The notes beneath the pieces are model-generated. The model was given only the letters and a program-made list of their open reading frames with translations, searched no databases and was not told the origin of the DNA. This document shows, piece by piece, positions 7,120-55,066 of a stretch of 64,000 bases of DNA. Source of the stretch: Alphaproteobacteria bacterium (lineage in GTDB: Bacteria; Pseudomonadota; Alphaproteobacteria; GCA-2731375); assembly GCA_965225945.1 (NCBI GenBank), contig CBDDBZ010000037.1:320001-384000 (forward strand), given 5' to 3'. Positions within the stretch are counted from its first letter, which is position 1; every line of letters starts with the position of its first letter. The translations under genes and the position numbers were made by a program.

Positions 7120-7144
7120 CCAAACGGCACGTCGGCCGGCTGTG

Positions 7145-7978
7145 TCAACCGGCACCCGCGCCGTCGAGGCCGAGGTGGGACAGGATCAAGCCGGCCTGGG
7201 CGCGGACCATGTCGTGGCCGCTCTGGGTGATGCAGCCGAGCCTCCGTGCCTGCGCCAGCATCGGCGAGACCTCGGGCGCGAGGATGACGTCGGCGAGCGC
7301 CGTTTCAGCCCGAAGGTCCGTGAGATCGAAGGGCAGGGGATCGCCCGCAGCCATGCCCAGCGGTGTTGCGTTCACCAGCACGTCGTAATCGCCGGCGCCG
7401 CTCGGCCCCTTGTCGAGCGCCAGGCCTGGGAACTCGCGCGCCAGATCGTCGACGAGCGCGGCCAGGCGTCCCTCGTCGCAATCGTGGAGCCGGAGGCTGG
7501 CGACGCCCGCGTCGGCGAGCGCGAAGGCGATCGCGCGGCCGACGCCGCCGGCGCCGAGTTGCGCGGCGCGCGCGCCCTCCAGCCGGACACCCCGGCTCTT
7601 CAGGCCCGAGACGCAGCCGATGCCGTCGGTGTGATGGCCCACCCAGCGCCCGTCGTCGTCGCGCCGGATCACGTTCGCCGCGCCGACCCGCCGCGCGATC
7701 GGCGACAATTCGTCGATTCTACGCGCCGCCTCGATCTTGTGCGGCATGGTGGCGATGAAACCGTCGAGGTTGCGGATCGTCCGCACGGCCTCGAACCAGC
7801 GCGCGAAGTCGCCATCGGCGACCTGCATCGGGATCAGCACGGCGGGGATGCCCGCCTCGCGGAACAGCGCGTTGAAGATGCCGGGGGAGCCCACCTGGAC
7901 AATCGGGTCGCCGACCACGGCATAGAGGCGGGTCGCGCCCGTGATGGCCAGCGGCAGTCCCAGTTCGCCTTCCGACAT
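7145..7978 (-). CDS. Shikimate dehydrogenase family protein
   Basis: GDPIVQVGSP, TMPHK, HTDGIG, GAGGVG, NATPLGM. Confidence 0.85.
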   Translation of the reverse strand: MSEGELGLPLAITGATRLYAVVGDPIVQVGSPGIFNALFREAGIPAVLIPMQVADGDFARWFEAVRTIRNLDGFIATMPHKIEAARRIDELSPIARRVGAANVIRRDDDGRWVGHHTDGIGCVSGLKSRGVRLEGARAAQLGAGGVGRAIAFALADAGVASLRLHDCDEGRLAALVDDLAREFPGLALDKGPSGAGDYDVLVNATPLGMAAGDPLPFDLTDLRAETALADVILAPEVSPMLAQARRLGCITQSGHDMVRAQAGLILSHLGLDGAGAG

Positions 7979-8052
7979 CTCTCGATCCTCCCGGTTGCGC
8001 GGGCCGTTTAATATGTCGATAATCGCCGCCTTCGAGCAAGGGAGCCACACCG

Positions 8053-9426
8053 ATGAACATTCCGCTGAATTCGGCCCGCGCGCGCGACATCGCCAGCCAA
8101 GTTCATCCCCAGACCGACCTGGTCAAACACAGCCGAGAAGGCCCGCTGGTCATCGAATCCGGCGACGGGATTTACGTCCGCGACGACGACGGCAATGTCT
8201 ATATCGAGACGGTGTCGGGTCTGTGGTGCGCCTCCCTCGGTTTCGCCAACGAGCGCTTGGCCCGCGTCGCCTACGAGCAGATGCGTATCCTCGGCTTCTA
8301 TCATTCGTTCCGCAACAAGGCGAACCCGCCGAGCATCGATCTCGCCGAGGCGCTGCTGGCGCTGGCGCCGGTCGAGATGTCGAAGGTCGTCTTCCAGTGT
8401 TCCGGCTCGGAGGCGAACGACACCGCGATCAAGCTGGTCTGGTACTACCACAACGCCGTCGGCAAGCCGGAGAAGAAGAAGGTGATCGGGCGCCACAAGG
8501 GCTATCACGGCAGCACCATCGCCGCCGTCAGCCTCTCCGGCAAGCCGGACATGCACGCCGAATTCGACCTGCCGGTGAGCCCTCGTTTCCTCCATGTCGA
8601 CCCGCCGCACCACTATCGCTACGCCCAAGAGGGCGAGAGCGAGGACGCTTTCGCGACCCGCATGGCCGACGAGCTGGAGGCGCTGATCGTGGCGGAGGGG
8701 CCGGAGACCGTCGCCGCCTTCTTCGCCGAGCCGGTGATGGGCGCCGGCGGCGGCCTGGTGCCGCCCCGGACTTATTTCGACAAGGTGCAGGCCGTGCTCG
8801 CCCGCCATGAGGTGCTGTTCGTCGTCGACGAGGTGATCTGTGGCTTCGGGCGGACCGGCAACTGGTGGGGCAGCCAGACCTTCGACCTCAGGCCCGACAT
8901 CATCACCTGCGCCAAGGCGCTCTCGGGCGCCTTCCAGCCGATCTCGGCGATCCTGATCGGCGAGAAGATCTACCAGGCGATGCTGGAGGAGAGCCGCAAG
9001 GTCGGCATCTTCGCCCACGGCTTCACCTTCGCCGGCCACCCGGTGGCCGCCGCCGTGGCGCGGGAGACGCTCAGGATCTACCAGGAAGACGACATCATCG
9101 GCCACGTCCGCGCCGTGGCGCCGCGCTTCCAGGCCGCGATTCGAGCCCTCGCCAGCCATGACAATGTCGACGACGTGATGGGCGTCGGTCTGCTGGCGAG
9201 CCTGGAGTTGGTGGTCGACAAGGCGAGCAAGGCGCCGTTCCCGAAGGAGGCCGGGCTCGCCGACAGGATCGAGCAGGCGGCCTACCGCAACGGGCTGATC
9301 CTGCGCAACGTCGGCGACCGCCTCGCCTTCGCGCCCCCGCTCATCATCACCGAGGACCAGATCGACGATCTGGCGGCCCGCGTTGCCTGTGTCATCGACG
9401 AGGTGGCGGGCGAAATCCTCGGCTAG
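8053..9426 (+). CDS. Class III (omega) aminotransferase
   Basis: SGSEAND, GYHGST, EPVMGAGG, DEVICGFGRTG, AKALS (PLP lysine), HGFTFAGHP. Confidence 0.93.
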   Translation: MNIPLNSARARDIASQVHPQTDLVKHSREGPLVIESGDGIYVRDDDGNVYIETVSGLWCASLGFANERLARVAYEQMRILGFYHSFRNKANPPSIDLAEALLALAPVEMSKVVFQCSGSEANDTAIKLVWYYHNAVGKPEKKKVIGRHKGYHGSTIAAVSLSGKPDMHAEFDLPVSPRFLHVDPPHHYRYAQEGESEDAFATRMADELEALIVAEGPETVAAFFAEPVMGAGGGLVPPRTYFDKVQAVLARHEVLFVVDEVICGFGRTGNWWGSQTFDLRPDIITCAKALSGAFQPISAILIGEKIYQAMLEESRKVGIFAHGFTFAGHPVAAAVARETLRIYQEDDIIGHVRAVAPRFQAAIRALASHDNVDDVMGVGLLASLELVVDKASKAPFPKEAGLADRIEQAAYRNGLILRNVGDRLAFAPPLIITEDQIDDLAARVACVIDEVAGEILG

Positions 9427-9495
9427 ACCGTCGGCTGTTCTCGAGAAACCGAGATGGCTGTTCCTACCGCTCGCGAGCTCCGCTAGACTTGAGCC

Positions 9496-11244
9496 ATGTC
9501 GGAACGGGTACAACGCAGATTGGCGGCGATCGTATCCGCCGATGTGGTCGGCTATTCGCGTCTCATGGGCGCGGACGAGGTCGGCACCCACGCTCGCCTC
9601 AAGGCCCGTTTTTCGGAACAGGTCGAGCCGAAGATCGCCGAGCACGGCGGTCGCGTCGTGAAGCTCATGGGGGGACGGACTGTTGGCCGAATTTCCGAGC
9701 GTCGTCGACGCCGTGAATTGGGCCGTCGAGGTCCAGGCCGAGGTGGCGGAGCTGAGCGCCGAGGAGCCCGATGAACAACGGATCGAGTACAGGATGGGCG
9801 TGAACCTTGGCGATGTCATCGCGGATGGCGACGATATCTACGGCGACGGCGTGAATATAGCCGCTCGATTGCAGGAGATCGCCGAACCCGGTGGCGTCTG
9901 TATCTCGGAGAAGGTGCATGCCGAGGTGCTCGGAAAGCTCGGCGTTGAATTCGCCGATGGCGGCGCTCAGGCAATGAAGAACATCGCCCTGCCGGTCCAG
10001 GTCTGGCATTGGTCGCTCACCGCCGCTCCGGTTGTGGCCGCTCCCGCCGACAAGGCGCTGGCGCTGCCCGACAAGCCCTCCATCGCCGTGCTGCCCTTCG
10101 ACAACATGAGCGGCGATCCGGAGCAAGAGTTCTTTGCCGATGGCATAACCGAGGACATTATTACCGAGCTATCTCGATTTCGCGACTTGCTCGTGATTTC
10201 CCGCAACTCGGCATTCTTTTACAAGGGCAAGGCCATCAATGTTCAAGAAGTCGCCAAGGATCTCGACGTACAGTACGTCGTCGAGGGGAGCGTCCGTAAG
10301 GCGGGAAATCGTGTCCGAATAAGTGTGCAGTTGATTGACGCTGGTGTCGATCGGCATGTTTGGGCCGAGCGTTACGACCGAGACCTCGAGGATATATTCG
10401 CGGTTCAAGACGAAGTTACTTCCTCCATCGTCTCCACGCTTCCGGGACGCATCGAGGCCGCCGCCCGAGAGCGGGTGGAACGAAAACTTCCCGAGAACAT
10501 GGTGGCCTATGAGTCTGTGTTGGCTGGAAAGTTGCTCCATCACAAGTCGAACAAGGAAGATAATCAAAAAGCTCAAGTCCTGCTCGACCGTGCCATAGGC
10601 CTAGATCCAAAATACGCGCATGCACACGCTTGGAAGGCCTGCACGTTGGGATAAGCATGGGGGTATGGGTGGTGTGTCGATAAAGACGTCACGTGGGACG
10701 AAGTTGTCTCGGAACTCCAGATCGCGCTTGCGCTCGACGATAACGATAGCGATGTCCACCGGATCCTAGCCGCCGTCGATGTGACACGAGGCGATCTTGA
10801 TAAAGCGATGTATCATCAGGAGCGTGCGTTGAGCCTCAATCCGAATGATGACCTGATTGTCGTGCAGCAAGGAGAAGTTCTGACTTGGCTTGGGCAAGCC
10901 GAGGAAGGAATTAAATGGATAAAAATGCGATGCGGCTCAACCCTTATCACCCGGAACGATTCTGGAGCCATTTGGGTCGGGCATACTTCGTGGCACACCG
11001 ATATGATGAAGCGATCGAGGCATTCAAGCGCATTGCTACACTAGATTACACACACCATGCGTTCCTTGCCGCCAGCTTTGCCCAGATGGATGATGTTGTG
11101 GTAGCGAGAAATCATGCGGAAGTCGTGATACGAGAAGAGGCGACATTCACCGTGAGCGGTTACTTGGAAACACTTCACTATGGGCACGATACGGATCGTG
11201 AACACCATCGTGAAGCTCTGTCGAAAGCTGGTTTGCCGCCGTAA
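9496..11244 (+). pseudogene. Adenylate/guanylate cyclase-TolB-N-TPR protein, disrupted
   Basis: Split over ORFs 9496-9774, 9683-10654, 10781-11044 and 10915-11244. Frameshifts in a G-run (~9669) and an A-run (~10921), and an in-frame TAA at 10652. Confidence 0.85.
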
Positions 11245-17169: not shown

Positions 17170-17373
17170 GCCGGCATTGAGATCGAGTCGGCCGATATGG
17201 CGGCGATGGTTTTGCGCGAGAGAAGCTTCAGCCACCGGAGGAGGAGGCGGAAGTCGTAGCCAGGGGCGCTATGCGGGCATTGTGATCAAGTCGGCCAATA
17301 CGGCGGCGATGATTTTACGCAAAAAAAGCTTCAGCCACCTGAGGAGGAGGCGGAAGTTGTAGCCGGCGGCGCT
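17170..17373. repeat. Diverged tandem duplication (~101 bp, period 103) of the IS5 transposase 3' end
   Basis: 17170-17270 vs 17273-17373 align without gaps, about 14 mismatches. Confidence 0.85.
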
Positions 17374-17752
17374 CATCACGGCGTTGATCCGGTCGCCGAG
17401 CCGTCCCTTCAGGTAGTTCCGGTCGAGATGGCCGTCGGTCTTGCAATGGCCGATGACGGCCTCGATGGCGCTTCGTCGCCGGAGCTCCTTTTTGATCTGG
17501 CCGTGGACGCCGCGCTTCTGGCCCGACTTGAAGACCCGCAGCGGCTTCGGCGCATCGTGGCCCCGGTAGCCCTTGTCGACATAGACCCGCTCGATCGCGC
17601 GCCCCGTCAGGGTCTCGGTCTCCTCCAGCACCTCCTTTGTGGAACGGCGTGCAAAGTTGACCCCTGTTGAGGGGTGATCGGCGTCCAAATTTGACCCCCT
17701 GAGCCTGGCTAGTCCAAGTCACCTCGTTTTTGGGCGGACGAGGTGGTGGGGG

Positions 17753-19264
17753 ATGTTGGTCGTGGAGACGATAGCGCGGATCCGGCGGGAGTATTTCGTC
17801 AAGGGGAAGCCGATCAAGGAGATCGTGCGGGACGTGAAGGTCTCGGGCAACACGGTGCGCAAGGTGATCCGTTCGCAGGCGACGGCGTTCACCTACGACC
17901 GGCGGGTCCAGCCGATGCCGAAGCTGGGGCCGTGGACGGCCGAGCTGGAGCGGATGCTGGAGGCCAACGAGACCAAGTCGAAGCGGGAGCGGCTGACGCT
18001 GCTACGGATCTCCGAAGCCCTCGAGGGTCTGGGCTATGGCGGCGGCTACGACGCGGTGCGGCGCTACGCCAAGGCGTGGCGGTGGCGCCGTTCGGCATCG
18101 ACGGCGCAGACCTATGTGCCGTTGGTGTTCTCGCCGGGCGAGGCCTATCAGTTCGACTGGAGCCACGAGTACGTGGTGCTGGCGGGGGTGACGACCAAGG
18201 TCAAGGTCGCGCACGTCCGGCTGTGCCACAGCCGAATGTTCTTCGTCCGCGCTTATCCGCGCGAGAGCCAGGAGATGGTGTTCGACGCCCACGACCGGGC
18301 ATTCCGGCTGTTCCAGGGTGCCTGCCGGCGAGGCATCTACGACAACATGAAGACGGCGGTGCAGACCGTCCTCATCGGCAAGGAGCGCGCGTTCAACCGG
18401 CGCTTCGTGCAGATGTGTGGCCACTACCTGGTCGAACCGACAGCATGCACGCCGGGAGCGGGATGGGAGAAGGGGCAGGTCGAGAACCAGGTCGGGATCA
18501 TCCGCGGTCGGTTCTTCACCCCGCGGCTGCGCTTCAAGACCTACGACGAGCTCAACGCCTGGCTCTTGGACCAGTGCGTCGCCTACGCCCGGCGTCATCC
18601 CCACCCGGTGTTCAAGGACAGGACTGTCTGGCAGGTGTTCGAGGACGAGCGTCCGTCCCTGGTCGGCTATCGCGGGCCGTTCGACGGCTTCCACGCGGTC
18701 CCGGCGTCGGTGTCGAAGACCTGCCTGGTGCGCTTCGACAGCAACAAGTACAGCGTGGCGGCGCGCGCCGTCGGCCGTCCGGTCGAGGTCCATGCCTACG
18801 CCGATCGCATCGTCATCCGCCAGGACGGCGAGATCGTCGCCGAGCATGCCCGGCGCTTCGGCCGCGACCAGACCGTCTATGACCCGTGGCACTACGTGCC
18901 CGTGCTGGCGAGGAAGCCCGGTGCGCTTCGTAACGGCGCGCCGTTCAAGGACTGGGCGCTGCCCGGCGCCCTGGGTCGCGTGCGCGTCCGGCTCGCCGGC
19001 CACGACGACGGCGACAGGCAGATGGTCGAGATCCTCACCGCCGTGCTGGCGGATGGGCTGGCGGCGGTGGAGGCCGCCTGTGCCGAGGCGCTCGCTGGCG
19101 GCGTGTGCAGCGCCGACGTCGTGCTCAACATCCTCAATCGTCGGCGCCAGCCGTCCGAGACGGCGCCGATCCCGACGCCCGCGAACCTGCGTCTTCGCTT
19201 TGAGCCGGTGGCCGATTGCACCCGCTACGACCGCTTGAGGGGGGTCGGCCATGGAGCGCCATGA
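17753..19264 (+). CDS. istA: IS21 transposase
   Basis: HTH N-terminus, [20 protein letters not shown]. Confidence 0.95.
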
Positions 19265-19979
19265 GGTCCTGGAGATGATGGCCGCACTCAAGCTCGCCGG
19301 CATGCGCGACGCGTTCGACGAGGTGCTCGCCGACGGCCTCAAGCGCCAGCATCCGATGCAGCGAATCATCGGCGAGCTGTTGAAGGCCGAGATCGCCGAC
19401 AAGCAGGCGCGATCCATCAAGTACCAGATGAGTGGCGCCAAGCTGCCGCTGGCCAAGGAGCTGGCCGACTTCGACTTCACCGACACCCCGGTCAACGAGC
19501 CGCTGGTCCGCGAGTTGGCGGTCGGCGGCTTCCTGGCCAACCAGCGCAACGCCGTGCTGATCGGCGGCACCGGCACCGGCAAGAGCCATCTCGCCGTCGC
19601 CATCGCGCGGGCCTGCATCCGCGATGGCGCCCGGGGCCGCTTCTTCAACGTCGTCGACCTGGTCAACCGGCTCGAGGCCGAAGCCCGCGCCGGCCGCCAG
19701 GGCCGGCTCGCCGATCAGCTGGCCCGGCGCGACCTCGTCATCCTCGACGAGCTCGGCTACCTGCCCTTCGCCCAAACCGGAGGCCAGCTGCTGTTCCACC
19801 TCGTCAGCCGGCTCTACGAGCGCACCTCGATCATCGTCACCACCAACCTGACCTTCGGCGAATGGCCGTCCGTCTTCGGCGACGCCAAGATGACCACCGC
19901 GCTCCTCGATCGTCTGACGCACCACTGCGAGATCATCGAGACCGGAAACGACTCCTGGCGCTTCAAGAATCGGTCCTAA
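19251..19979 (+). CDS. istB: IS21 helper ATPase
   Basis: Walker A GGTGTGKS, Walker [21 protein letters not shown]. Confidence 0.95.
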
Positions 19980-21500
19980 AGGCAACCGATCCACCTGCCG
20001 CCCGGTCGCCCAGGTGGGCCCACAGGAACCTCCCACGCGCGGTCCGCCGCCAGCCGCGTGGTGGGCGCGTCGGCCCGCGCGCGGGCCCCTCCTATGGACT
20101 ACCTGTACGACCTCCGCCGTGCATCCCCAAAGGGGTCAACATTGCACGCCGATAGGGGGTCAATGTTCAACGCCGATTGACACCTCCTTCAAGGTGTGGC
20201 GGTCGTAGGGAATGCCGGGGAGCGCCTTGGCGTGGAGGATGAACTGTCCGCCTTTGCAACGCTTGTTGGTGGTGGTGAGCGAGACCTTGACGCCGAACTC
20301 GTAGGGCTTCGCGGCTTTGCCTTTGCCGATGCACTCGACCTCGGGGGCATGCCATGAATAGAGCTTCCAGCCGCGCTGGCGTTGCTTCTGGCCACGGATC
20401 TGGCGGGCCCTGAGAAGCGCCGTCGCGAAGACTTCCTCCAGCGCCCGATCGCCCTCGATCTTGCGCTCGATATCACGGATGAGCCGGCCGAGCCGGGTCC
20501 GCAAGAACTTCAGCTCCCGGTTCATCCGCTTGAACTGTTTGGCGTGGGCGTATCGGCCCACCATCATCGCCGCCCGCCGCGCCACCCGAACATAGCTCTG
20601 GCGGAGCTCCACGCCATGGCGCTTGGCCAGCTCGCCGAGCTTGTCGATCGCCCTCTTCAGCAGTTTGGCGTCGGTCGGGAAGGTGATGTTCTTCGGCTGC
20701 ACCGTGGTGTCGACCGTGACCCGGGCGAGATCGCTCTTCTTCAGGGCGCCGGTGTCATGGGCAACGCGCAGGCTCTCTTGCAGCAGGATATCCAGGCGAT
20801 CACCCAGGCGCTTCCTCCAATGGCTCAATCCCGAGCGTTCGTGGGGGAGCCCGTGCTGGAAGAATTCCTCGCCGGTGAAGTACTGGAAGTAGGGATCGTG
20901 CTCCCAACGCTCCCAGAGCTGCTCGTCGGAGAGCGTGTAGGTGTGCTTCAGCACGAACATGCCGATCATGAAGCGGACCGGCTCGGCGGGTCGGCCGTTG
21001 TCGGCGAAGCGGTCCGTCAGGTGTTCCTCGATCCAGGCCCAATCGATCCTCTCGGCCAAGAGGACGAGCGGGTGGCGCATGTTGATGATGTGGTCGAGGC
21101 GCGAACGGAAGAGGTCGTCGTGATCGGCCTTGGGAGACTGCTTCGGTCGCATGGGAGCCCTCATAATCACGAGCTTGACTATAACATGAATCAGCGAAAA
21201 ATAGAACATAAAATCAAACGAAATTGCAAGAAATCCACCTTGCCTCAGGCGATTTCTTGCAAACTCGAACCGTGCCTCACGACGAATACACCAACGATGC
21301 CGCCGAAATTCGGGAATTTAACGGCCGACGAATTAGCACCCCTAATGTTACGTCCGGTATCGAAGGCGCTCCGGACGTGACCTGAGCGAAAGATGGTATA
21401 TCGCGGCGGCTGTGGCTGATGATATCAGGATGATGGCAGCCCCTTCACGCATGATCGATAAATCGGGGTCGCCCTGACCTCGAACATCGAGGAAGGAGCG

Positions 21501-22553
21501 ATGACGATGGCACATTTCGTAGGTCTGGATGTTTCGGTGAAGGAGACGGCGGTATGCGTCGTCGACGAGGTTGGCGAGGTGGTGTTGGAGCGGAAAGTGC
21601 CGACCGAGCCGGACGACATCGTCACGCTGCTGACCTCGATCGGCGTGGCCTATGGCCGGATCGGGATCGAAGCCGGTCCGCTCTCGCAATGGCTGGTCAA
21701 CGGTCTTGCCGCCGCCGGGCTGCCGGTTGTCTGCGTCGAGACTCGGCACATGAAAGCACTGCTCAAGGGGCAGCAGATCAACAAGAGCGACCGCAACGAT
21801 GCGCGCGGCATCGCCCAGATGATGCGGGTCGGGCTGTTCAAGCCGGTGCATGTGAAGACCCTGGTTGCCCAGGAGCAGCGGATGCTGCTGACCAGCCGCA
21901 AGCTGCTCCAGAGAAAACTGCTCGACGTCGAGAACGATCTACGCGGGACGCTGCGCAACTTCGGTCTCAAGGTGGGCATGGTCAGCACCCGCGGGTACGA
22001 GGCGCGGATCCGCGAGCTGGTCGAAGACTTTCCGAAGCTGGCCGCTATCGTGGAACCGCTGCTCACCGTCCGGCGAGTGATGCGCCAGCAATTCGCGGTC
22101 CTCCACAAAATGGTGCTCGACACGGTCCGCCATGACCCGGTCTGCCGACGGCTCATGACGGCACCCGGCGTCGGCGTGGTCGTCGCGCTGACCTACCGGG
22201 CTACCATTGATCAGCCGCAGCGCTTCGTTCACTCCAGGGCGGTCGGCGCGCATGTCGGCCTGACGCCGAAGCGCTTCCAGTCCGGCGAGATCGACTATGA
22301 TGGTCGCGTGTCCAAGTGCGGCGACAGCATGCTCCGCACGATGCTGTACGAGGCCGCGCAGTCCCTCCTCACCCACGGCCGGGAATGGTCCTGGCTGAAG
22401 GCGTGGGGCATGCGAGTGGCCCAGCGACGTGGCATGCGCCGTGCCATCGTCGCCGTCGCGAGGCGCCTGGCCGTAGTTCTGCACCGCATGTGGGTCGACG
22501 GCACCGAGTTCCGCTGGAGCAACGGCCCTGCTGACGCCGTCAAGGCGGCTTGA
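21501..22553 (+). CDS. IS110-family transposase/recombinase
   Basis: FVGLDVS, GIEAG, KSDRNDARGIA, HVGLTPKRFQSGE. Confidence 0.94.
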   Translation: MTMAHFVGLDVSVKETAVCVVDEVGEVVLERKVPTEPDDIVTLLTSIGVAYGRIGIEAGPLSQWLVNGLAAAGLPVVCVETRHMKALLKGQQINKSDRNDARGIAQMMRVGLFKPVHVKTLVAQEQRMLLTSRKLLQRKLLDVENDLRGTLRNFGLKVGMVSTRGYEARIRELVEDFPKLAAIVEPLLTVRRVMRQQFAVLHKMVLDTVRHDPVCRRLMTAPGVGVVVALTYRATIDQPQRFVHSRAVGAHVGLTPKRFQSGEIDYDGRVSKCGDSMLRTMLYEAAQSLLTHGREWSWLKAWGMRVAQRRGMRRAIVAVARRLAVVLHRMWVDGTEFRWSNGPADAVKAA

Positions 22554-22619
22554 ACCTTCGACTGTACTGACAAGGAGATCAACGAGTTCTGCTTAGGCAG
22601 AGAGATGTCCTCACGGGGA

Positions 22620-22760
22620 CGACGGGTGGGGTGAGTTCGTAATGTCGGTAGACCCTGCCGCTGACCGGCGGCAAGGACGCGCGAAAGATTGAACCGCCTC
22701 ATCCTCTGATCCCATCATGAGGTGGCCACGCGCCAACCTCGAAGAGAAGCAAGAGCCCCG
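22620..22760 (+). ncRNA. Putative bridge/seekRNA of IS110 no. 2 (second copy at ~52706-52846)
   Basis: Two stem-enclosed internal loops. Guides AATGTCGG/GCGAAAG match both observed targets. ATCCCATC/AGAGAAG match the donor junction. Confidence 0.78.
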
Positions 22761-22949
22761 TGCGGCAACATCCGCCAGTGCGGAACGACGTGAAGAAGGA
22801 ATATGGCATGACGTAACCAGAAAGGGCTTGACCGAGGACGCGATAGAGAAGACGACATTCGAGCTTAAGGGACGTGATACTCAACTCGTAAAGTTGATTA
22901 TTGAGTCCCCTTATCCACCCGACGCCCGCTGGATTGCCGCGGCCCCTTA

Positions 22950-23555
22950 TACCAATCGGCATTAATCAGAACTCATGCGCCCATTTACGCCGCCCGATGG
23001 ACGTGATGTTCCATGGTTGATCGATGAGCTTGTTCCAGGCTTCGCAGCAGGAGGTGATGATCTGCTCGTCGGATTGGAAGACCAAGTTGGACAGCCAGTT
23101 GTCGCGCATGAACTGCCAGATGTTTTCGGTCGGATTGAGCTCCGGCGAGCGTGGTGGCAGGGGCAGGAGGGTAACGTTGGCGGGGATCTTCAGCTTGTCC
23201 GTGGTGTGCCAACCCGCCTGATCGAGGAGCAGGAGGGCATGCGCGCGCGCGCCTACCCGGGAGGAGATCTCCTCCAGATGCAGCTGCATGGCCTGGGTGT
23301 CGCAGTGGGGGAGCACGACCCGACGCCCGCTGGATTGCCGCGGCCCCTTAGAGGTGTGTGCAATTTCGCCGTCGAGCGGGCGCGCTACTCCGCCGCCTCG
23401 GCCATCCGCGCCGCGCCGATTTCGCGCGGGCTGACCCGCTTGGCCCGCTCCATCGGCTTCGGCCAGGCCAAGTGCTCCCATTCGTCTTCCCACAGGTCGG
23501 TGAGCTGCGGCATCCGCCGCACTCAAAGTGAGTCTCCCTCAAGGCCGATTGGTAT
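22950..23555 (-). mobile_element. IS630-family remnant (transposase C-terminus 22966-23317)
   Basis: IR TACCAATCGGC/GCCGATTGGTA with TTA on both sides. Protein LDQAGWH...LPPRSPELNPTENIWQ. The N-terminal part is replaced by a copy of flanking DNA. Confidence 0.85.
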
Positions 23556-47834: not shown

Positions 47835-49993
47835 GTGCGCCGGGAGGCCGGCGAGGAGTAGCGGATGAGAGAGCCGTACGGTGAAGGATTAGCCATCCAC
47901 ACCGGCCCCGAGTCATGCGCCTGCGGTCCGCGAGGGCGAGGCGAAGCGTTGACAGGGGTACATGTGGGCTGGGTATTGAGCCGCGAAAAATGCGCATTCG
48001 AGGCGCCGACCCTGTGGGTCTATGGGGAAGGCCACACCGACGAGCGCGCATTGGCGAGCGCTCGGAGGGCCTTGCGCGGTCGTAGACCCCACGCACGCAT
48101 GGAAATCGCCTGAGCGGAAACCGGGAGATCTCTCGAGTGGCCGTCCTTGCGTTTGCGCGGTCCGCATCGGGAAGGCCCGAAGGGCCGTAGCCGATGACGC
48201 ACGCTCGAGAGAAGTCAGATTTGCCCATAGTACCTGGGAAGCCGACGAACAAAGCCTTGTGCGAGGCGGCGGAGCCGGTGGAGGGAAGGGGCGGAGCCAA
48301 GGGGAACGTGGGTCAGCAACGCAGGCGCCGGACGCGGAGTCGGGAAAGCCTGTCACAGGGGCTGGAGCGCGTACGAGAAGCGGCGAGACGAGATGGGAAA
48401 CTAAAGTTCACCGCGCTGCTGCACCATGTCGATGTCGAACTCCTTCGGGCCTCCTACCTGGCGCTGAAGCGCGACGCGGCGCCCGGAGTGGACGGCATGA
48501 CGTGGCAAGAGTACGGCCAGGATCTGGAGCAGCGTCTCCCGAACCTGCATGGGCGGCTCCATCGGGGCGGCTACCGGGCTCTGCCGAGCCGGCGACAATT
48601 CATCGCGAAGTCGGACGGCTCGGCGCGGGCATTGGGGATCGCGGCCCTGGAGGACAAGATCGCCCATATGGCCGTGAGCACGGTGCTGAACCAGATTTAC
48701 GAGGAAGATTTCCTCGGGTTCAGCTACGGCTTCCGTCCGGGGCGCAACCAGCACGACGCGCTGGACGCGCTCGCGGTGGCGATCACCGAGCGCGAGGTGA
48801 ACTGGATCCTGGACGCCGATATATCCGGCTTCTTCGACTCATCCGACCAAAACTGGCTGAGAGGGTTCCTAGAGCACCGGATCGGAGATCGGCGTCTCCT
48901 CCGCCTTACGGCCAAGTGGCTGAAAGATGGTATATCGCGGCGGCTGTGGCTGATGATATCAGGATGATGGCAGCCCCTTCACGCATGATCGATAAATCGG
49001 GGTCGCCCTGACCTCGAACATCGAGGAAGGAGCGATGACGATGGCACATTTCGTAGGTCTGGATGTTTCGGTGAAGGAGACGGCGGTATGCGTCGTCGAC
49101 GAGGTTGGCGAGGTGGTGTTGGAGCGGAAAGTGCCGACCGAGCCGGACGACATCGTCACGCTGCTGACCTCGATCGGCGTGGCCTATGGCCGGATCGGGA
49201 TCGAAGCCGGTCCGCTCTCGCAATGGCTGGTCAACGGTCTTGCCGCCGCCGGGCTGCCGGTTGTCTGCGTCGAGACTCGGCACATGAAAGCACTGCTCAA
49301 GGGGCAGCAGATCAACAAGAGCGACCGCAACGATGCGCGCGGCATCGCCCAGATGATGCGGGTCGGGCTGTTCAAGCCGGTGCATGTGAAGACCCTGGTT
49401 GCCCAGGAGCAGCGGATGCTGCTGACCAGCCGCAAGCTGCTCCAGAGAAAACTGCTCGACGTCGAGAACGATCTACGCGGGACGCTGCGCAACTTCGGTC
49501 TCAAGGTGGGCATGGTCAGCACCCGCGGGTACGAGGCGCGGATCCGCGAGCTGGTCGAAGACTTTCCGAAGCTGGCCGCTATCGTGGAACCGCTGCTCAC
49601 CGTCCGGCGAGTGATGCGCCAGCAATTCGCGGTCCTCCACAAAATGGTGCTCGACACGGTCCGCCATGACCCGGTCTGCCGACGGCTCATGACGGCACCC
49701 GGCGTCGGCGTGGTCGTCGCGCTGACCTACCGGGCTACCATTGATCAGCCGCAGCGCTTCGTTCACTCCAGGGCGGTCGGCGCGCATGTCGGCCTGACGC
49801 CGAAGCGCTTCCAGTCCGGCGAGATCGACTATGATGGTCGCGTGTCCAAGTGCGGCGACAGCATGCTCCGCACGATGCTGTACGAGGCCGCGCAGTCCCT
49901 CCTCACCCACGGCCGGAAATGGTCCTGGCTGAAGGCGTGGGGCATGCGAGTGGCCCAGCGACGTGGCATGCGCCGTGCCATCGTCGCCGTCGC

Positions 49994-52538
49994 TGTGGAA
50001 CGGCGTGCAAAGTTGACCCCTGTTGAGGGGTGATCGGCGTCCAAATTTGACCCCCTGAGCCTGGCTAGTCCAAGTCACCTCGTTTTTGGGCGGACGAGGT
50101 GGTGGGGGATGTTGGTCGTGGAGACGATAGCGCGGATCCGGCGGGAGTATTTCGTCAAGGGGAAGCCGATCAAGGAGATCGTGCGGGACGTGAAGGTCTC
50201 GGGCAACACGGTGCGCAAGGTGATCCGTTCGCAGGCGACGGCGTTCACCTACGACCGGCGGGTCCAGCCGATGCCGAAGCTGGGGCCGTGGATGGCCGAG
50301 CTGGAGCGGATGCTGGAGGCCAACGAGACCAAGTCGAAGCGGGAGCGGCTGACGCTGCTACGGATCTCCGAAGCCCTCGAGGGTCTGGGCTATGGCGGCG
50401 GCTACGACGCGGTGCGGCGCTACGCCAAGGCGTGGCGGTGGCGCCGTTCGGCATCGACGGCGCAGACCTATGTGCCGTTGGTGTTCTCGCCGGGCGAGGC
50501 CTATCAGTTCGACTGGAGCCACGAGTACGTGGTGCTGGCGGGGGTGACGACCAAGGTCAAGGTCGCGCACGTCCGGCTGTGCCACAGCCGAATGTTCTTC
50601 GTCCGCGCTTATCCGCGCGAGAGCCAGGAGATGGTGTTCGACGCCCACGACCGGGCATTCCGGCTGTTCCAGGGTGCCTGCCGGCGAGGCATCTACGACA
50701 ACATGAAGACGGCGGTGCAGACCGTCCTCATCGGCAAGGAGCGCGCGTTCAACCGGCGCTTCGTGCAGATGTGTGGCCACTACCTGGTCGAACCGACAGC
50801 ATGCACGCCGGGAGCGGGATGGGAGAAGGGGCAGGTCGAGAACCAGGTCGGGATCATCCGCGGTCGGTTCTTCACCCCGCGGCTGCGCTTCAAGACCTAC
50901 GACGAGCTCAACGCCTGGCTCTTGGACCAGTGCGTCGCCTACGCCCGGCGTCATCCCCACCCGGTGTTCAAGGACAGGACTGTCTGGCAGGTGTTCGAGG
51001 ACGAGCGTCCGTCCCTGGTCGGCTATCGCGGGCCGTTCGACGGCTTCCACGCGGTCCCGGCGTCGGTGTCGAAGACCTGCCTGGTGCGCTTCGACAGCAA
51101 CAAGTACAGCGTGGCGGCGCGCGCCGTCGGCCGTCCGGTCGAGGTCCATGCCTACGCCGATCGCATCGTCATCCGCCAGGACGGCGAGATCGTCGCCGAG
51201 CATGCCCGGCGCTTCGGCCGCGACCAGACCGTCTATGACCCGTGGCACTACGTGCCCGTGCTGGCGAGGAAGCCCGGTGCGCTTCGTAACGGCGCGCCGT
51301 TCAAGGACTGGGCGCTGCCCGGCGCCCTGGGTCGCGTGCGCGTCCGGCTCGCCGGCCACGACGACGGCGACAGGCAGATGGTCGAGATCCTCACCGCCGT
51401 GCTGGCGGATGGGCTGGCGGCGGTGGAGGCCGCCTGTGCCGAGGCGCTCGCTGGCGGCGTGTGCAGCGCCGACGTCGTGCTCAACATCCTCAATCGTCGG
51501 CGCCAGCCGTCCGAGACGGCGCCGATCCCGACGCCCGCGAACCTGCGTCTTCGCTTTGAGCCGGTGGCCGATTGCACCCGCTACGACCGCTTGAGGGGGG
51601 TCGGCCATGGAGCGCCATGAGGTCCTGGAGATGATGGCCGCACTCAAGCTCGCCGGCATGCGCGACGCGTTCGACGAGGTGCTCGCCGACGGCCTCAAGC
51701 GCCAGCATCCGATGCAGCGAATCATCGGCGAGCTGTTGAAGGCCGAGATCGCCGACAAGCAGGCGCGATCCATCAAGTACCAGATGAGTGGCGCCAAGCT
51801 GCCGCTGGCCAAGGAGCTGGCCGACTTCGACTTCACCGACACCCCGGTCAACGAGCCGCTGGTCCGCGAGTTGGCGGTCGGCGGCTTCCTGGCCAACCAG
51901 CGCAACGCCGTGCTGATCGGCGGCACCGGCACCGGCAAGAGCCATCTCGCCGTCGCCATCGCGCGGGCCTGCATCCGCGATGGCGCCCGGGGCCGCTTCT
52001 TCAACGTCGTCGACCTGGTCAACCGGCTCGAGGCCGAAGCCCGCGCCGGCCGCCAGGGCCGGCTCGCCGATCAGCTGGCCCGGCGCGACCTCGTCATCCT
52101 CGACGAGCTCGGCTACCTGCCCTTCGCCCAAACCGGAGGCCAGCTGCTGTTCCACCTCGTCAGCCGGCTCTACGAGCGCACCTCGATCATCGTCACCACC
52201 AACCTGACCTTCGGCGAATGGCCGTCCGTCTTCGGCGACGCCAAGATGACCACCGCGCTCCTCGATCGTCTGACGCACCACTGCGAGATCATCGAGACCG
52301 GAAACGACTCCTGGCGCTTCAAGAATCGGTCCTAAAGGCAACCGATCCACCTGCCGCCCGGTCGCCCAGGTGGGCCCACAGGAACCTCCCACGCGCGGTC
52401 CGCCGCCAGCCGCGTGGTGGGCGCGTCGGCCCGCGCGCGGGCCCCTCCTATGGACTACCTGTACGACCTCCGCCGTGCATCCCCAAAGGGGTCAACATTG
52501 CACGCCGATAGGGGGTCAATGTTCAACGCCGATTGACA
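49994..52538 (+). mobile_element. IS21-family element, copy 2 (istA 50109-51620, istB 51607-52335)
   Basis: Same 2545-bp element as 17638-20182, with one T/M change in IstA. 7-bp TSD CCGTCGC. Confidence 0.95.
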
Positions 52539-52857
52539 CCGTCGCGAGGCGCCTGGCCGTAGTTCTGCACCGCATGTGGGTCGACGGCACCGAGTTCCGC
52601 TGGAGCAACGGCCCTGCTGACGCCGTCAAGGCGGCTTGAACCTTCGACTGTACTGACAAGGAGATCAACGAGTTCTGCTTAGGCAGAGAGATGTCCTCAC
52701 GGGGACGACGGGTGGGGTGAGTTCGTAATGTCGGTAGACCCTGCCGCTGACCGGCGGCAAGGACGCGCGAAAGATTGAACCGCCTCATCCTCTGATCCCA
52801 TCATGAGGTGGCCACGCGCCAACCTCGAAGAGAAGCAAGAGCCCCGTGCGGCAACAT

Positions 52858-54197
52858 GATTGAGCAACCTGATGTGTGGAAATTCGGAACGCCGTTGATC
52901 AGTCATCCTCTGCTTTCCAAGTGATGTAGGGTTTTTCGGTGGTTTCCCATTTCTCGTCGATTTCGACGAGGATGGCGGTGACCAGGCGTTCGAGCGAGGC
53001 CTCGTTGGGAAAGACCCTGACCTTTACGGTGCGGCGCTTGATCTCCTGCTGGATGGATCGCTCCATGGGGTTCGAGGTTCGCATGCGCTTTTGGTGGCGC
53101 TCGGGCAGGGCGAAGACGGCGAGGCCCTCGGGGATCGCCGCCTCCAGCCAATCGGCGAGCTTGGGGGCGCTATCGCGGTAGGCCGCCACCAGGTGGCCCA
53201 GCTCGGCCTCGGCGGCCTTGCCGTCGGCGGCATTCCAGACCCGGCGCAGCTCCTTGCCGATGGCCTTTCGGATGGCGAGGTTGGGGGCGTGATGGATGGC
53301 GTTTTGAGCCAGATGGTACTGACAGCGCTGCCAGACGGCGCCGCCGAGGACGGCCTTGCGCGCGGCGCCGAGGCCTGGATGATCATCGGAAACGATATAG
53401 GCGACACCGCGCATGCCACGGGCAACCAGGGTCTCCAGGAAGGCGCGCCAGTGCACTTCGGCCTCGGAGAGCGCACAGGAAACACCGAGCACCCGGCGGC
53501 GCTGGTCGGGGCCGATGCCGATCACCGAGAGCACGGCGGCGTCGCGCACCACGCCACCCTCTCGGACTTTCTCATAGCGCGCGTCGAGGAGCAGGTAGCG
53601 GATCTCGCCCAGCGGCCGGTTGCGCCAGGCATCCAGCTCCCCATCCAAGAGCTTGGCGGCGCGGCTGACCTGGCTCGACGACAGGCTCTCCAGGCCGAAC
53701 TCGCGCATCACCGCCTCGGCGTCACGGGTGGAGACGCCTTTGATATACATCTCCGCCACGGCCAGCATGACAGCGCGGCAGGAGCGCCGTCCGCGCTCCA
53801 GGGCTTGGGGGTAAAAAGGCGCCTCATGACCGGCGGTCTTGGGAACCTCGAGCCTCACCGTACCGGCCGGGGTGTCGATCTTCTTGGGTCTGGTGCCGTT
53901 GGCGTATCCCCGCCGCTCGGGCGTGCGCTCATAGTGGCCGGCGCCCAAGAACCTCTCCCGCTCGATCCGCATGGCGAGATTGAAAAGGCCGGCGAAGACC
54001 GTCGCCATGTTCTCGCTACCGCCTTCGATCAATTGTTCCACCAAAGCCTCGACAGCGCTATCCTGGTCTTTCCGCATACTGGTTCTCCATGTTTGTTTGG
54101 ACGCTTTCATGGATAACCAAAATGACGGATCGCCCCGCGCCGGGGTATACCCCGGCGCGGGGCGAAGCCAAATTTCCAGACCTCACGCTACACAAGC
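52858..54197 (-). mobile_element. IS256-family element
   Basis: Imperfect 27-bp IR GATTGAGCAACCTGATGTGTGGAAATT vs GCTTGTGTAGCGTGAGGTCTGGAAATT. 8-bp TSD GGCAACAT (52850-52857, 54198-54205). Confidence 0.9.
52899..54077 (-). CDS. IS256-family transposase
   Basis: EMYIKGVSTR, LLLDARYEKVR, SDDHPGL, QRCQYH, RTSNPMER, VFPNEAS. Confidence 0.93.
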   Translation of the reverse strand: MRKDQDSAVEALVEQLIEGGSENMATVFAGLFNLAMRIERERFLGAGHYERTPERRGYANGTRPKKIDTPAGTVRLEVPKTAGHEAPFYPQALERGRRSCRAVMLAVAEMYIKGVSTRDAEAVMREFGLESLSSSQVSRAAKLLDGELDAWRNRPLGEIRYLLLDARYEKVREGGVVRDAAVLSVIGIGPDQRRRVLGVSCALSEAEVHWRAFLETLVARGMRGVAYIVSDDHPGLGAARKAVLGGAVWQRCQYHLAQNAIHHAPNLAIRKAIGKELRRVWNAADGKAAEAELGHLVAAYRDSAPKLADWLEAAIPEGLAVFALPERHQKRMRTSNPMERSIQQEIKRRTVKVRVFPNEASLERLVTAILVEIDEKWETTEKPYITWKAEDD

Positions 54198-55066
54198 GGC
54201 AACATCCGCCAGTGCGGAACGACGTGAAGAAGGAATATGGCATGACGTAACCAGAAAGGGCTTGACCGAGGACGCGATAGAGAAGCCGGCATTATGCAAG
54301 ATGGCAAACTCACGGTCCCGGAGCAGGGGACGCCACAGGGCGCGGTGCTCTCACCGCTGCTCTCCAACGTCTACCTGCACTATGTCCTGGACTTGTGGGC
54401 GCACCAATGGCGTCGGCGCCATACCCACTGCGACATGGTCATCGTCCGCTACGCGGACGACTTCGTCGTGGGCTTCGAGTACCGGGAAGACGCGCTTGCC
54501 TTCCGGGCGGCATTGGAGGAACGCTTGCGGGCTTTCGGCCTCGCGCTGTTCGCGGAGAAAACCCGGCTCATCGAGTTTGGGCGGCACGCCGCGAAAAGTC
54601 GGAAGGGCCGAGGCGACGGCAAGCCGGAGACGTTCGACTTCCTGGGCTTCACGCACATCTGCGCGAAGGACCGGAAGGGACGGTTCCAACTGCGACGCAA
54701 GACGCGGCGTAAGCGCATGGGGGCGAAGCTCGGGGAGATCAAGCGCGAACTCCTCCGGCGACGGCATCAGCCAATCGCCGAGCAGGGCCGCTGGCTGGCA
54801 TCGGTGGTGCGAGGCTACTTCGCGTACTTCGCCGTGCCGACCAACGCTCCGGCCCTGAATGCCTTCCGCTATCAGGTCGCCCGGTTCTGGCTGAAAGCGC
54901 TCCGGCGCCGCAGCCAGAACGACCGCACGACCTGGAAGGTCTTTGCCAAGCTGGTCGAGCGCTGGCTTCCGCCAGTGACGATCCTCCATCCCTGGCCGTC
55001 GAAACGCTTCTACGTCAAATACCCGAGGCAGGAGCCCGGTGCATTAGCAGTGCACGCCGGGATCTG

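What the first reader, a model, noticed from the sequence alone, without database searches (positions are those of the whole stretch)
22554..22859. Readable bridge/seekRNA in IS110 no. 2, supported by two independent insertion sites
Seen: the two reconstructed targets are gagcGAAAG|aCGaCATT (21384-21392|22852-22859) and ggctGAAAG|cCGgCATT (48918-48926|54286-54293). The 3' non-coding region has stem 22623-22638/22691-22704 enclosing AATGTCGG (22641-22648; reverse complement CCGACATT, 7/8 to each right half), a TGCCGCT/GGCGGCA hairpin, and GCGAAAG (22681-22687; 7/7 and 5/7 to the left halves). A second loop has ATCCCATC (22709-22716; 7/8 to the reverse complement of donor GATGGTAT), a GAGGTGGC/GCCAACCTC hairpin, and AGAGAAG (22743-22749, the donor right end). 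Established: IS110/IS1111 recombinases are RNA-guided, and IS1111-type elements encode the RNA downstream of the transposase. Inference: the preferred target is GCGAAAG|CCGACATT, making this a candidate programmable recombinase pair that tolerates mismatches.
Basis: partly seen in the sequence, partly recalled or inferred. Interest (0 to 1): 0.72.

Follow-up and report, generated by a model that had tools for sequence, protein, structure and literature searches.

The report
IS1111-type insertion sequence with guide RNA
This is an ordinary but very clean example of a jumping gene whose own small RNA appears to spell out both its landing site and its own ends, a mechanism first described in 2024.

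Summary
It is a new member of a known kind, not a new kind.

- **Element:** Window 21393-22851 is a 1459-bp IS110-family element of the IS1111 type. It has a 350-aa DEDD transposase, a 108-nt 5' and a 298-nt 3' non-coding region, and 7-bp subterminal inverted repeats.
- **Copies and target:** The genome holds 11 copies at 9 distinct sites. All are inserted at GAAAG (one GATAG) | CCGACATT-like sequence. No GAAAGCCGACATT site is left unoccupied.
- **RNA structure:** The 3' non-coding region (about 22588-22762) folds into a two-loop RNA. Across 57 homologous sequences, 85.7% of cells pair, against 37-50% when the partners are slid. 21 pairs show compensatory changes.
- **Donor loop:** It carries AUCCCAUC and AGAGAAG, which match the element's own ends.
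- **Covariation:** In homologues from other genomes the scaffold is conserved while the guides change together with the flanks (0 of 2000 permutations for each side).
- **Guide order:** The order (top-strand match 5' of bottom-strand match) is the published IS1111 seekRNA order.
- **Not shown:** A discrete RNA, its binding to the transposase, and reprogrammability.

The parts
21393..22851 (+). Complete IS110-family (IS1111-type) insertion sequence, 1459 bp. The boundaries are ambiguous by the shared core AG/AAG.
   Evidence: 10 uninterrupted copies and 1 interrupted copy at 97.8-100% identity. Flanks diverge outside GAAAG and CCGACATT. Uninterrupted relatives of the site read GCGAAAGCCGACATC and GCGAAAGCCGACAGT.
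21386..21392 (+). Left target half GCGAAAG, ending in the core AG
   Evidence: Identical to the 3' guide at 22681-22687.
22852..22859 (+). Right target half ACGACATT (genome consensus CCGACATT)
   Evidence: 7 of 8 complementary to the guide at 22641-22648.
21399..21405 (+). Left subterminal inverted repeat TATCGCG, 6 nt from the left end
   Evidence: Read. Its partner is CGCGATA at 22839-22845.
21501..22553 (+). Transposase gene, 350 aa, with the motif GLTPKRFQSG
   Evidence: ORF. Pfam PF01548 and PF02371. NCBIfam NF033542 at 249.7 bits against a cut-off of 140.
22588..22762 (+). Predicted bridge/seekRNA gene: 5' hairpin, closing helix, target loop and donor loop. The RNA ends are not mapped.
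   Evidence: Fold. Conservation and covariation in 57 homologous sequences.
22588..22601 (+). 5' hairpin UCUGC/GCAGA
   Evidence: 98.6% of cells paired. 2 pairs have a change on both sides in 25 sequences each (helix 1).
22612..22618 (+). 5' strand (CACGGGG) of the candidate closing helix; it pairs with CCCCGUG at 22756-22762
   Evidence: Fold. The distant group has CUCGCGGG with CCCGYGAG. By column count the result is inconclusive, at 75.6% paired (helix 2). A local hairpin GUCC/GGAC is an alternative.
22624..22638 (+). 5' strand of the outer stem of the target loop; it pairs with 22691-22704
   Evidence: 88.7% of cells paired, and 7 of 14 pairs have changes on both sides (helix 3).
22641..22649 (+). 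Right-target guide AAUGUCGG, plus a U that can wobble-pair with the core G. [quoted passage not shown]
   Evidence: Covaries with right flanks in 45 unique pairs: own 7.09 of 8 against 5.85 for other elements' flanks, 0 of 2000 permutations.
22653..22676 (+). Inner hairpin of the target loop (CCCUGCCGC / GCGGCAAGG)
   Evidence: Fold. 7 of 9 pairs have changes on both sides, but only 70.4% of cells pair because the loop is poorly aligned (helix 4).
22681..22687 (+). Left-target guide GCGAAAG, the same sequence as the left target half, so it pairs with the bottom strand
   Evidence: Covaries with left flanks in 50 unique pairs: own 4.62 of 7 against 2.97, 0 of 2000 permutations. The informative positions are -7 to -3.
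22691..22704 (+). 3' strand of the outer stem of the target loop
22709..22716 (+). Donor guide AUCCCAUC. [quoted passage not shown]
   Evidence: A U-A pair here corresponds to a C-G pair in most group-1 homologues, which have ACCCCAUC with ATGGTGTA.
22719..22740 (+). Inner hairpin of the donor loop (GAGGUGGC / GCCAACCUC)
   Evidence: 99.7% of cells paired, and 4 of 7 pairs have changes on both sides (helix 5).
22743..22749 (+). Donor guide AGAGAAG, the same sequence as the right end of the element
   Evidence: Invariant in all 57 aligned sequences. The right end TAGAGAAG is kept in the 55 loci with a clean right junction.
22756..22762 (+). 3' strand (CCCCGUG) of the candidate closing helix
22839..22845 (+). 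Right subterminal inverted repeat CGCGATA, 6 nt from the right end
   Evidence: Read.
48927..54285 (+). Second copy in the window, inactivated by two nested insertions (49994-52538 and 52858-54195). It sits inside a group II intron.

Best explanation
Window 21393-22851 is an IS1111-type member of the IS110 family. Its DEDD transposase is most likely guided by a roughly 175-nt RNA encoded just downstream of the transposase gene (about 22588-22762).

The RNA has two internal loops.
[quoted passage not shown] In the excised circle these two ends are expected to abut as AGAGAAG-ATGGTAT.

The shared core is AG. Recombination between the circle junction and GCGAAAG|CCGACATT inserts the element without a target duplication.

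Shown here: the anatomy, the copies and their sites, the conserved structure, and the covariation of guides with flanks. Inferred: that the RNA is made as a discrete species, binds the transposase and dictates targeting.
For: 1. **Family.** Pfam DEDD_Tnp_IS110 and Transposase_20 both match. NCBIfam 'IS110 family RNA-guided transposase' scores 249.7 bits against a cut-off of 140. The long non-coding region lies 3' of the gene, there is a 7-bp subterminal inverted repeat, and the motif GLTPKRFQSG is present. These match the published IS1111 criteria.
2. **Copies.** There are 11 copies at 9 distinct sites, all at GAAAG (one GATAG) | CCGACATT, CCGGCATT or ACGACATT.
3. **Site occupancy.** 0 GAAAGCCGACATT sites remain unoccupied. 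4 GAAACCCGACATT sites, where the last core base is changed, are empty. So are 5 GATAGCCGACATT sites.
4. **Structure.** On 57 homologous sequences, 85.7% of cells pair, against 36.7-49.5% when partners are slid. 21 of 42 pairs have changes on both sides. 0 of 500 shuffles reach the observed score.
5. **Guides track flanks.**
   - Right side: 45 unique pairs, of which 17 pair 8 of 8 and 19 pair 7 of 8. The mean is 7.09 against 5.85 for other elements' flanks, 0 of 2000 permutations.
   - Left side: 50 unique pairs, 4.62 of 7 against 2.97, 0 of 2000 permutations.
   - Two sibling elements of one assembly (L022, L023) carry AAUGGCCG and AAUGACUG. They sit at CGGCTATT and CAGTCATT respectively.
6. 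**Guide order.** The top-strand match lies 5' of the bottom-strand match, which is the IS1111 seekRNA order. It is the reverse of IS621.
7. **Chance.** 41 of 200,000 shuffles contain both target matches.
Against: - **No proof of a discrete RNA.** Contigs from four RNA libraries of one study cover the whole element, including the non-coding region. Contigs cannot show RNA ends or rule out DNA carry-over, and no circle junction was seen.
- **No promoter or terminator.** No sigma-70-like promoter was found in 21300-22950, and no terminator-like site lies in the 3' non-coding region.
- **Weak fold signal for the whole region.** The 306-nt region folds no better than shuffles (z = -1.23).
- **Donor mismatch.** The donor guide keeps a C-T mismatch with left-end position 5 in this element and its close relatives.
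- **Off-consensus sites.** 4 of 9 left half-sites match the guide at only 5-6 of 7 positions. The window's own right half has an A opposite the guide G.
- **Control limits.** The permutation tests do not correct for shared descent of elements and sites.
- **A cautionary precedent.** In ISPpu9, another IS110-family element, the RNA gene downstream of the transposase gene was not required for transposition (abstract of PMC12288879).
Confidence: 0.85

Rival explanations
1. The conserved 3' region is an accessory or selfish small-RNA module, or a 3'-UTR regulator of the transposase. It rides with the element but does not choose the target. Site choice is made by the protein reading the repeat that carries the site.
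For: In ISPpu9 the downstream Ssr9 RNA gene was dispensable for transposition (abstract). At least 6 of the 9 sites here lie in one dispersed repeat (ccggacgtgaNcNgagcGAAAG|CCGACATTcgg), which a protein could in principle recognise. No expression data are available.
Against: Protein recognition would not make the loop sequences base-complementary to each element's own flanks. That complementarity is seen across 28 different loops and 38 different flanks. It also holds for sites outside that repeat, such as the group II intron site and C12. The donor loop also matches both ends of the element.
Confidence: 0.08
2. The matches are DNA-level remnants, such as captured target fragments or scars of nested insertions in the non-coding region, and not RNA guides.
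For: The DNA that encodes the guides is itself identical to the half-sites. Some homologues show rearrangements exactly there (L039 and L040; L023).
Against: The two half-site matches are in opposite orientation, separated by a conserved hairpin, and placed symmetrically in an internal loop closed by a covarying stem. The same geometry repeats for the donor ends. Scars would not keep being updated to match new targets in 45 unique pairs.
Confidence: 0.04
3. Chance resemblance of short words in a GC-rich non-coding region.
For: The words are short (7-8 nt). A 7-mer alone occurs in about 4.6% of shuffles (9177 of 200,000).
Against: Both target words occur together in 41 of 200,000 shuffles. That is before counting the donor words, the structural placement and the covariation in homologues.
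Confidence: 0.01

Closest known systems
IS1111-family seekRNA elements (ISEc11, ISPa11, ISKpn4, ISPst6; Siddiquee et al. 2024, PMC11187229; abstract and sections 6, 9 and 13 read)
   Same: - The long non-coding region lies downstream of the transposase gene.
- The transposase is 330-350 aa with a GL-P----S(t)G motif.
- Subterminal inverted repeats are present.
- The RNA carries a segment complementary to the target's top strand, placed 5' of one complementary to the bottom strand.
- Insertion is site-specific.
   Different: The target is different (GCGAAAG|CCGACATT, mostly inside a dispersed short repeat). No biochemical evidence exists for this element. Here the donor loop is also legible next to the target loop.
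IS621 bridge RNA (IS110 group; Durrant et al. 2024, PMC11208160, passages read; structures 8wt6 to 8wt9)
   Same: - A two-loop RNA in which each loop holds two guides.
[quoted passage not shown]
- The pairings overlap at a short core shared by donor and target.
- The RNA is of similar size (published range 150-250 nt; about 175 nt here).
   Different: - In IS621 the RNA lies in the left end, upstream of the gene.
[quoted passage not shown]
- The core is CT in IS621 and AG here.
- Only the C-terminal half of the protein aligns to IS621 by sequence (residues 198-340, E 1.3e-12).
ISPpu9 of Pseudomonas putida KT2440 (PMC12288879; abstract read)
   Same: An IS110-family element, present in several copies, inserted in repetitive extragenic sequences, with a small-RNA gene downstream of the transposase gene.
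   Different: Ssr9 was reported as not required for transposition and as moving as a separate module. Here the single 3'-only fragment (contig C37:60693-60962) is simply truncated by another insertion sequence. The RNA here carries guides that match the target and the ends.
ISMno22 family (Methylobacterium nodulans; annotation under hit H8)
   Same: It is the only named insertion sequence among the annotations of the 30 plasmid hits listed.
   Different: It is only about 66.6% identical in DNA over 73% of the query. The nearest hits are unnamed 'IS110 family transposase' genes in Bosea (79.4%) and Polymorphobacter (75.2%) plasmids.

Membership tests
IS110 family, IS1111 group | DEDD (RuvC-like) N-terminal domain plus a Transposase_20 C-terminal domain | tested here: met
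   PF01548 at 68.9 bits and PF02371 at 73.7 bits. NF033542 at 249.7 bits against a cut-off of 140.
IS110 family, IS1111 group | The longer non-coding region lies downstream of the transposase gene | tested here: met
   108 nt upstream (21393-21500) against 298 nt downstream (22554-22851).
IS110 family, IS1111 group | Subterminal inverted repeats of 7-17 bp | tested here: met
   TATCGCG at 21399-21405 and CGCGATA at 22839-22845, each 6 nt from an end. The repeat is 9 bp in copy C24_96774 and in most homologues.
IS110 family, IS1111 group | Transposase of 330-350 aa with a GL-P----S(t)G motif | tested here: met
   350 aa, with GLTPKRFQSG in the translation.
IS110 family, IS1111 group | Site-specific insertion without a target duplication | tested here: met
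   9 distinct sites share GAAAG|CCGACATT. Uninterrupted relatives read GCGAAAGCCGACATC and GCGAAAGCCGACAGT, and only the core AG/AAG is common to both junctions.
IS110 family, IS1111 group | Placement of the transposase inside the IS1111 clade in a phylogeny with named members | not tested
Bridge RNA / seekRNA | A structured RNA with internal loops flanked by conserved stems | tested here: met
   85.7% of cells paired, 21 pairs with changes on both sides, 0 of 500 shuffles.
Bridge RNA / seekRNA | Target-loop segments complementary to the top strand of one target half and the bottom strand of the other, overlapping at the core | tested here: met
   AAUGUCGG(U) against (G)CCGACATT, and GCGAAAG identical to the left half.
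Bridge RNA / seekRNA | Guides covary with the insertion sites among orthologues | tested here: met
   0 of 2000 permutations on each side; L022 and L023 of one assembly; L029 at 8 of 8.
Bridge RNA / seekRNA | Donor-loop segments complementary to the ends of the element | tested here: met
   AGAGAAG matches the right end 7 of 7. AUCCCAUC matches G+ATGGTAT 7 of 8, with one compensatory U-A to C-G change relative to homologues. The right-end pair is invariant, so it cannot covary.
Bridge RNA / seekRNA | IS1111-type order: top-strand match 5' of bottom-strand match | tested here: met
   22641-22648 lies 5' of 22681-22687. The criterion is from PMC11187229 section 9.
Bridge RNA / seekRNA | The RNA is expressed as a discrete species and binds the transposase | not testable with these tools
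   The RNA-library contigs cover the region but give no ends and no proof of transcription. No Rfam family matches.
Bridge RNA / seekRNA | The RNA is required for transposition, and retargeting follows guide changes | not testable with these tools
   This needs an experiment.

The most novel reading that the evidence does not exclude
Guide modules are exchanged between sibling elements inside one genome, and the DNA that encodes the guides is itself a substrate for the recombinase.

- **Guide exchange.** Copy C29:43154-44622 differs from the other ten copies at 21 sites, all clustered in 22476-22726 (18 substitutions and a 3-nt deletion; three of the substitutions are shared with one or two other copies). 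These give it a different right guide (AAUGUCUG plus C) and left guide (GCAAAAG). It still sits at the same site as two copies with the standard guides.
- **Guide-coding DNA as a pseudo-site.** In homologues, element boundaries fall exactly at guide-coding words. The right boundary of L039 falls at the AGAGAAG of the donor guide. The right end of L040 is joined to the sequence that follows the left-target guide. L023 has a duplicated right end.

If real, the guide genes would act both as recombination-swappable specificity cassettes and as built-in pseudo-sites that shape how these elements decay and diversify.
Probability: 0.25. Interest if true: 0.45.

Novelty: new member of a known kind. 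Interest (0 to 1): 0.3.

Why it matters
RNA-guided IS110/IS1111 recombinases are being developed as programmable tools for inserting DNA.

This element adds a well-documented natural case. It has 11 copies and 9 sites in one genome. It also has a family of at least 57 distinct homologous RNA sequences with one scaffold and many guide pairs. That gives a ready-made natural table of guide-to-target pairs, including wobble and mismatch positions, and a candidate orthologue to test.

It does not change the concept. Bridge or seek RNAs in the 3' end of IS1111-type elements were published in 2024. For genome annotation, it explains why this element clusters at one short repeat and at one position of a group II intron.

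Tried and rejected
- **Rfam.** No family covers the region at gathering thresholds. At E up to 10 there were 6 matches, all far below their gathering scores and none in the proposed RNA at 22588-22762.
- **Promoter and terminator scan.** No promoter-like site was found. Two terminator-like sites lie on the minus strand inside the transposase gene, no more than expected from shuffles.
- **RNA-library contigs.** X1-X4 are four runs of one study, kept as contigs. They cover the element from about 21371 to 22861 and run on into flanks that match other genomic copies. They show no joints and no begin or end pile-ups. They prove neither transcription nor its absence, and no circle junction was seen.
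- **'Solo RNA module' idea.** I tested whether the 270-nt 3' fragment at contig C37:60693-60962 is an independent module like ssr9. I rejected this: its left neighbour is the end of another repeat with 58 BLAST hit lines in the genome, so it is a truncated copy.
- **Palindromic (REP-like) target.** Only 1 of 11 flanks (C34) has an inverted partner of the site within 70 nt. I therefore call the target a dispersed short repeat and not a REP.
- **Empty copy of the intron site.** No genomic sequence spans the GGCTGAAAG|CCGGCATT junction. Whether the three intron-borne copies are three insertions or one insertion later copied remains open.
- **Column-based guide extraction.** My first extraction mis-registered the right guide by one base in the distant group. 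I replaced it with a free-register comparison, applied equally to own and other flanks.
- **Closing helix.** Support for 22612-22618/22756-22762 is inconclusive by column counts, at 75.6% paired. RNAalifold preferred a local hairpin, GUCC/GGAC.
- **Rows dropped.**
  - Of the 80 loci plus the window, 72 had at least 320 nt downstream and entered the non-coding-region alignment.
  - 55 of those 72 had a clean GAGAAG right junction, and these reduce to 45 unique loop/flank pairs.
  - 56 loci passed the left-junction filter (ATGG preceded by AG), and these reduce to 50 unique pairs.
  - For alignment A1 I used 57 of 60 unique core sequences. I left out L019, L031 and L039 because their non-coding regions are disrupted or truncated.
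- **Not available.** Supplementary files of the papers were not consulted. The supplementary figures of Siddiquee et al. and Extended Data Fig. 10 and Supplementary Table 5 of Durrant et al. may already list close relatives of this element.

Full report
**What is there**

The window lies at contig C37:320001-384000 of a 6.27-Mb assembly in 39 contigs. The region 21388-22859 recurs in the window at 48922-54293. That second copy is interrupted by two other repeats, at 49994-52538 and 52858-54195.

In the whole genome there are 10 uninterrupted copies and this one interrupted copy, at 97.8-100% identity. There is also a 270-nt fragment of the 3' end. Aligning the flanks shows that sequence identity ends at ...GAAAG on the left and begins to vary at CCGACATT on the right. 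The element proper is therefore 21393-22851, 1459 bp, running from ATGGTAT to GAGAAG. The bases AG (or AAG) occur at both junctions and form the shared core.

Uninterrupted relatives of the site exist and show no target duplication. Examples are GCGAAAGCCGACATC at C38 minus strand 238043 and GCGAAAGCCGACAGT at C34:82315.

**The protein and the family**

The only long ORF that fits the element is 21501-22553, 350 aa. It matches Pfam DEDD_Tnp_IS110 and Transposase_20. It also matches the NCBIfam equivalog 'IS110 family RNA-guided transposase' at 249.7 bits against a cut-off of 140. By sequence, only its C-terminal half aligns to the solved IS621 and ISCro4 proteins.

The element has several features that Siddiquee et al. 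(PMC11187229, section 6) and Durrant et al. (PMC11208160, passage) give for the IS1111 group:
- The upstream non-coding region is 108 nt and the downstream one is 298 nt.
- A 7-bp subterminal inverted repeat (TATCGCG at 21399-21405, CGCGATA at 22839-22845) lies 6 nt from each end.
- The motif GLTPKRFQSG is present.
- The transposase is 350 aa long.

A phylogeny with named IS1111 members was not made.

All motifs are at the stated coordinates. RNAfold of 22600-22770 gives the outer stem 22624-22638/22691-22704, the inner hairpin CUGCCGC/GCGGCAG and the hairpin GAGGUGGCC/GCCAACCUC. The z-score is -2.65, with 3 of 200 shuffles folding as well. The whole 306 nt is unremarkable, at z = -1.23. In 200,000 shuffles of the non-coding region, 41 carried both the 8-mer and the 7-mer target words.

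**Target sites in this genome**

The 11 copies occupy 9 distinct sites. Three copies have identical flanks because they sit at the same position of a group II intron of about 1.8 kb, and no uninterrupted copy of that intron was found.
- Left 7-mers: GCGAAAG at 5 of 9 sites, and GTGAAAG, CTGAAAG, TGGAAAG and CCGATAG at one site each.
- Right 8-mers: CCGACATT at 7 of 9 sites, and ACGACATT and CCGGCATT at one site each. The last is compatible with the guide through a G-U pair.

At least six sites share a longer left context (ccggacgtgaNcNgagc), so the target is part of a dispersed short repeat. Only one flank shows a palindromic partner.

No GAAAGCCGACATT 13-mer remains unoccupied. Four GAAACCCGACATT sites, where the last core base is changed, are empty. 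So are five GATAGCCGACATT sites. This fits a requirement for the core, but it is only a correlation.

**Homologues and covariation**

A scan of one genome per species confirmed 559 related stretches, of which I kept 80, at 65-95% protein identity. Their 3' non-coding regions align well to this one.

The scaffold is conserved, including the invariant words GGGACGA, AGAUUG and GAGAGAAGC. The positions that correspond to 22641-22648 and 22680-22685 vary.

Right side:
- Each element's 5' loop segment is complementary to its own right flank.
- There are 45 unique loop/flank pairs, from 55 of 72 aligned sequences with a clean junction.
- 17 pair at 8 of 8 positions, 19 at 7, 6 at 6, 2 at 5 and 1 at 4.
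- The mean is 7.09, against 5.85 for other elements' flanks. 0 of 2000 permutations reach this.

Left side:
- There are 50 unique pairs.
- The 7 positions before the invariant AG are identical at 4.62 on average, against 2.97. 0 of 2000 permutations reach this.
- The signal is confined to positions -7 to -3.

Striking cases:
- L017, L025 and L029 pair 8 of 8.
- L022 and L023 come from one assembly and have near-identical scaffolds. Their guides AAUGGCCG and AAUGACUG face CGGCTATT and CAGTCATT respectively.

These tests do not correct for shared descent. What is observed, however, is base complementarity, which inherited protein specificity would not produce.

**RNA structure**

I wrote a structure from the fold of the window's own sequence and counted it on 57 distinct homologous sequences.
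- 85.7% of cells pair, against 36.7-49.5% with partners slid by 1-3 columns.
- 21 of 42 pairs have a change on both sides.
- 0 of 500 shuffles reach the observed pairing or covariation score.

The best-supported parts are the 5' hairpin, the outer stem of the target loop and the donor-loop hairpin.

The inner hairpin of the target loop is evident in individual sequences (GCCGC/GCGGC, GUCGC/GCGAC, GCUGC/GCAGC) but is poorly aligned, at 70.4% paired.

The long-range closing helix (CACGGGG/CCCCGUG here, CUCGCGGG/CCCGYGAG in the distant group) is plausible but not settled. RNAalifold chose a local hairpin there instead.

**Donor loop**

AGAGAAG (22743-22749) equals the right end. Both it and the right end are invariant in the family, so this pair is consistent but uninformative.

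AUCCCAUC pairs with the core G plus ATGGTAT at 7 of 8 positions. Most close homologues have ACCCCAUC with ATGGTGTA, so the U-A pair here is a C-G pair there. A C-T mismatch at left-end position 5 persists throughout this subgroup. In the distant subgroup, whose left end is ATGGGGTA, that position pairs.

**Layout compared with the literature**

[quoted passage not shown] Here the order is the reverse.

Siddiquee et al. state that IS1111-type seekRNAs have the top-strand match 5' of the bottom-strand match, and that the order is reversed between the two groups (abstract; section 9). The element therefore fits the IS1111 pattern in every feature I could test.

**What is not shown**

No tool here demonstrates a discrete RNA, its ends, its binding to the transposase or its necessity. 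Contigs from four RNA libraries of one study cover the whole element but are not decisive, and no circle junction was seen. No promoter-like site was found. No Rfam family covers the region. The ISPpu9 case, where a downstream RNA was dispensable (abstract), is a reminder that position alone is not proof. Here the argument rests on complementarity and covariation.

**State of the copies**

Eight of the 11 copies keep a 349-350-aa ORF from the same start. Copy C38 has lost the first ATG but keeps an in-frame ATG two codons later. Copy C26 has indels that remove the N-terminal MAHFVGLDVS stretch. The window's second copy is broken by two insertions.

Copy C29:43154 differs at 21 sites confined to 22476-22726. 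These include both target guides, which read AAUGUCUG plus C and GCAAAAG. That pattern suggests recombination with a variant element. No site matching those variant guides exists in the genome.

**Verdict**

The finding is a new, well-documented member of a known kind, the IS1111-type RNA-guided insertion sequences. Durrant et al. had already predicted bridge RNAs in 93.0% of ISfinder IS1111 elements. A specialist would not be surprised, so I score interest at 0.3.

Noticed in passing
window 47868-48089, 55101-55325, 56982-57206: Three Rfam group II intron D1-D4 matches (164-178 bits). The intron starting near 47822 hosts the second copy of the element. All three genomic copies of that intron carry the element at the same position, and no empty copy was found.
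   Followed up: partly
window 49994-52538 and 17638-20182: A 2545-bp repeat with about 30 full-length copies in the genome at over 99.5% identity, carrying ORFs of 503 and 242 aa. One copy is nested in the transposase gene of the second element copy.
   Followed up: partly
window 52858-54195: A 1338-bp repeat with about 18 full-length copies and a 403-aa ORF on the minus strand. It is nested just 3' of the RNA region of the second element copy. The genome as a whole is heavily loaded with insertion sequences.
   Followed up: partly
genome contig C29:43154-44622 (outside the window): This copy of the element differs from the others at 21 sites, all within the equivalent of window 22476-22726, and both target guides are changed. 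It looks like a recombination tract from a variant element. It sits at the same intron site as two copies with standard guides.
   Followed up: partly
genome contig C37:60693-60962 (outside the window): A 270-nt fragment holding only the RNA region and the right end, at a CCGACATT flank. Its other side abuts the end of another high-copy repeat, so it is a truncated copy and not a free RNA module.
   Followed up: yes
loci L039, L040 and L023: Boundaries fall at guide-coding DNA. In L039 the element ends at the AGAGAAG of the donor guide and is followed by a cognate-looking flank. In L040 the right end is followed by the sequence that normally follows the left-target guide. L023 has two right ends 41 nt apart.
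   Followed up: no
window 22828-22833: TTGACC lies 18 nt from the right end. The word CTTGAC is kept at this place in nearly all homologues. It could be the -35 box of a promoter completed at the circle junction, as described for other IS110-family elements. No convincing -10 box was seen by eye.
   Followed up: no
window 188-10216: Three pairs of long inverted repeats (251, 163 and 173 nt; 75-93% complementary) bracket about 9 kb.
   Followed up: no
window 17170-17373: Two tandem copies of a repeat of about 101 nt, at 86% identity, just upstream of a copy of the 2545-bp repeat.
   Followed up: no
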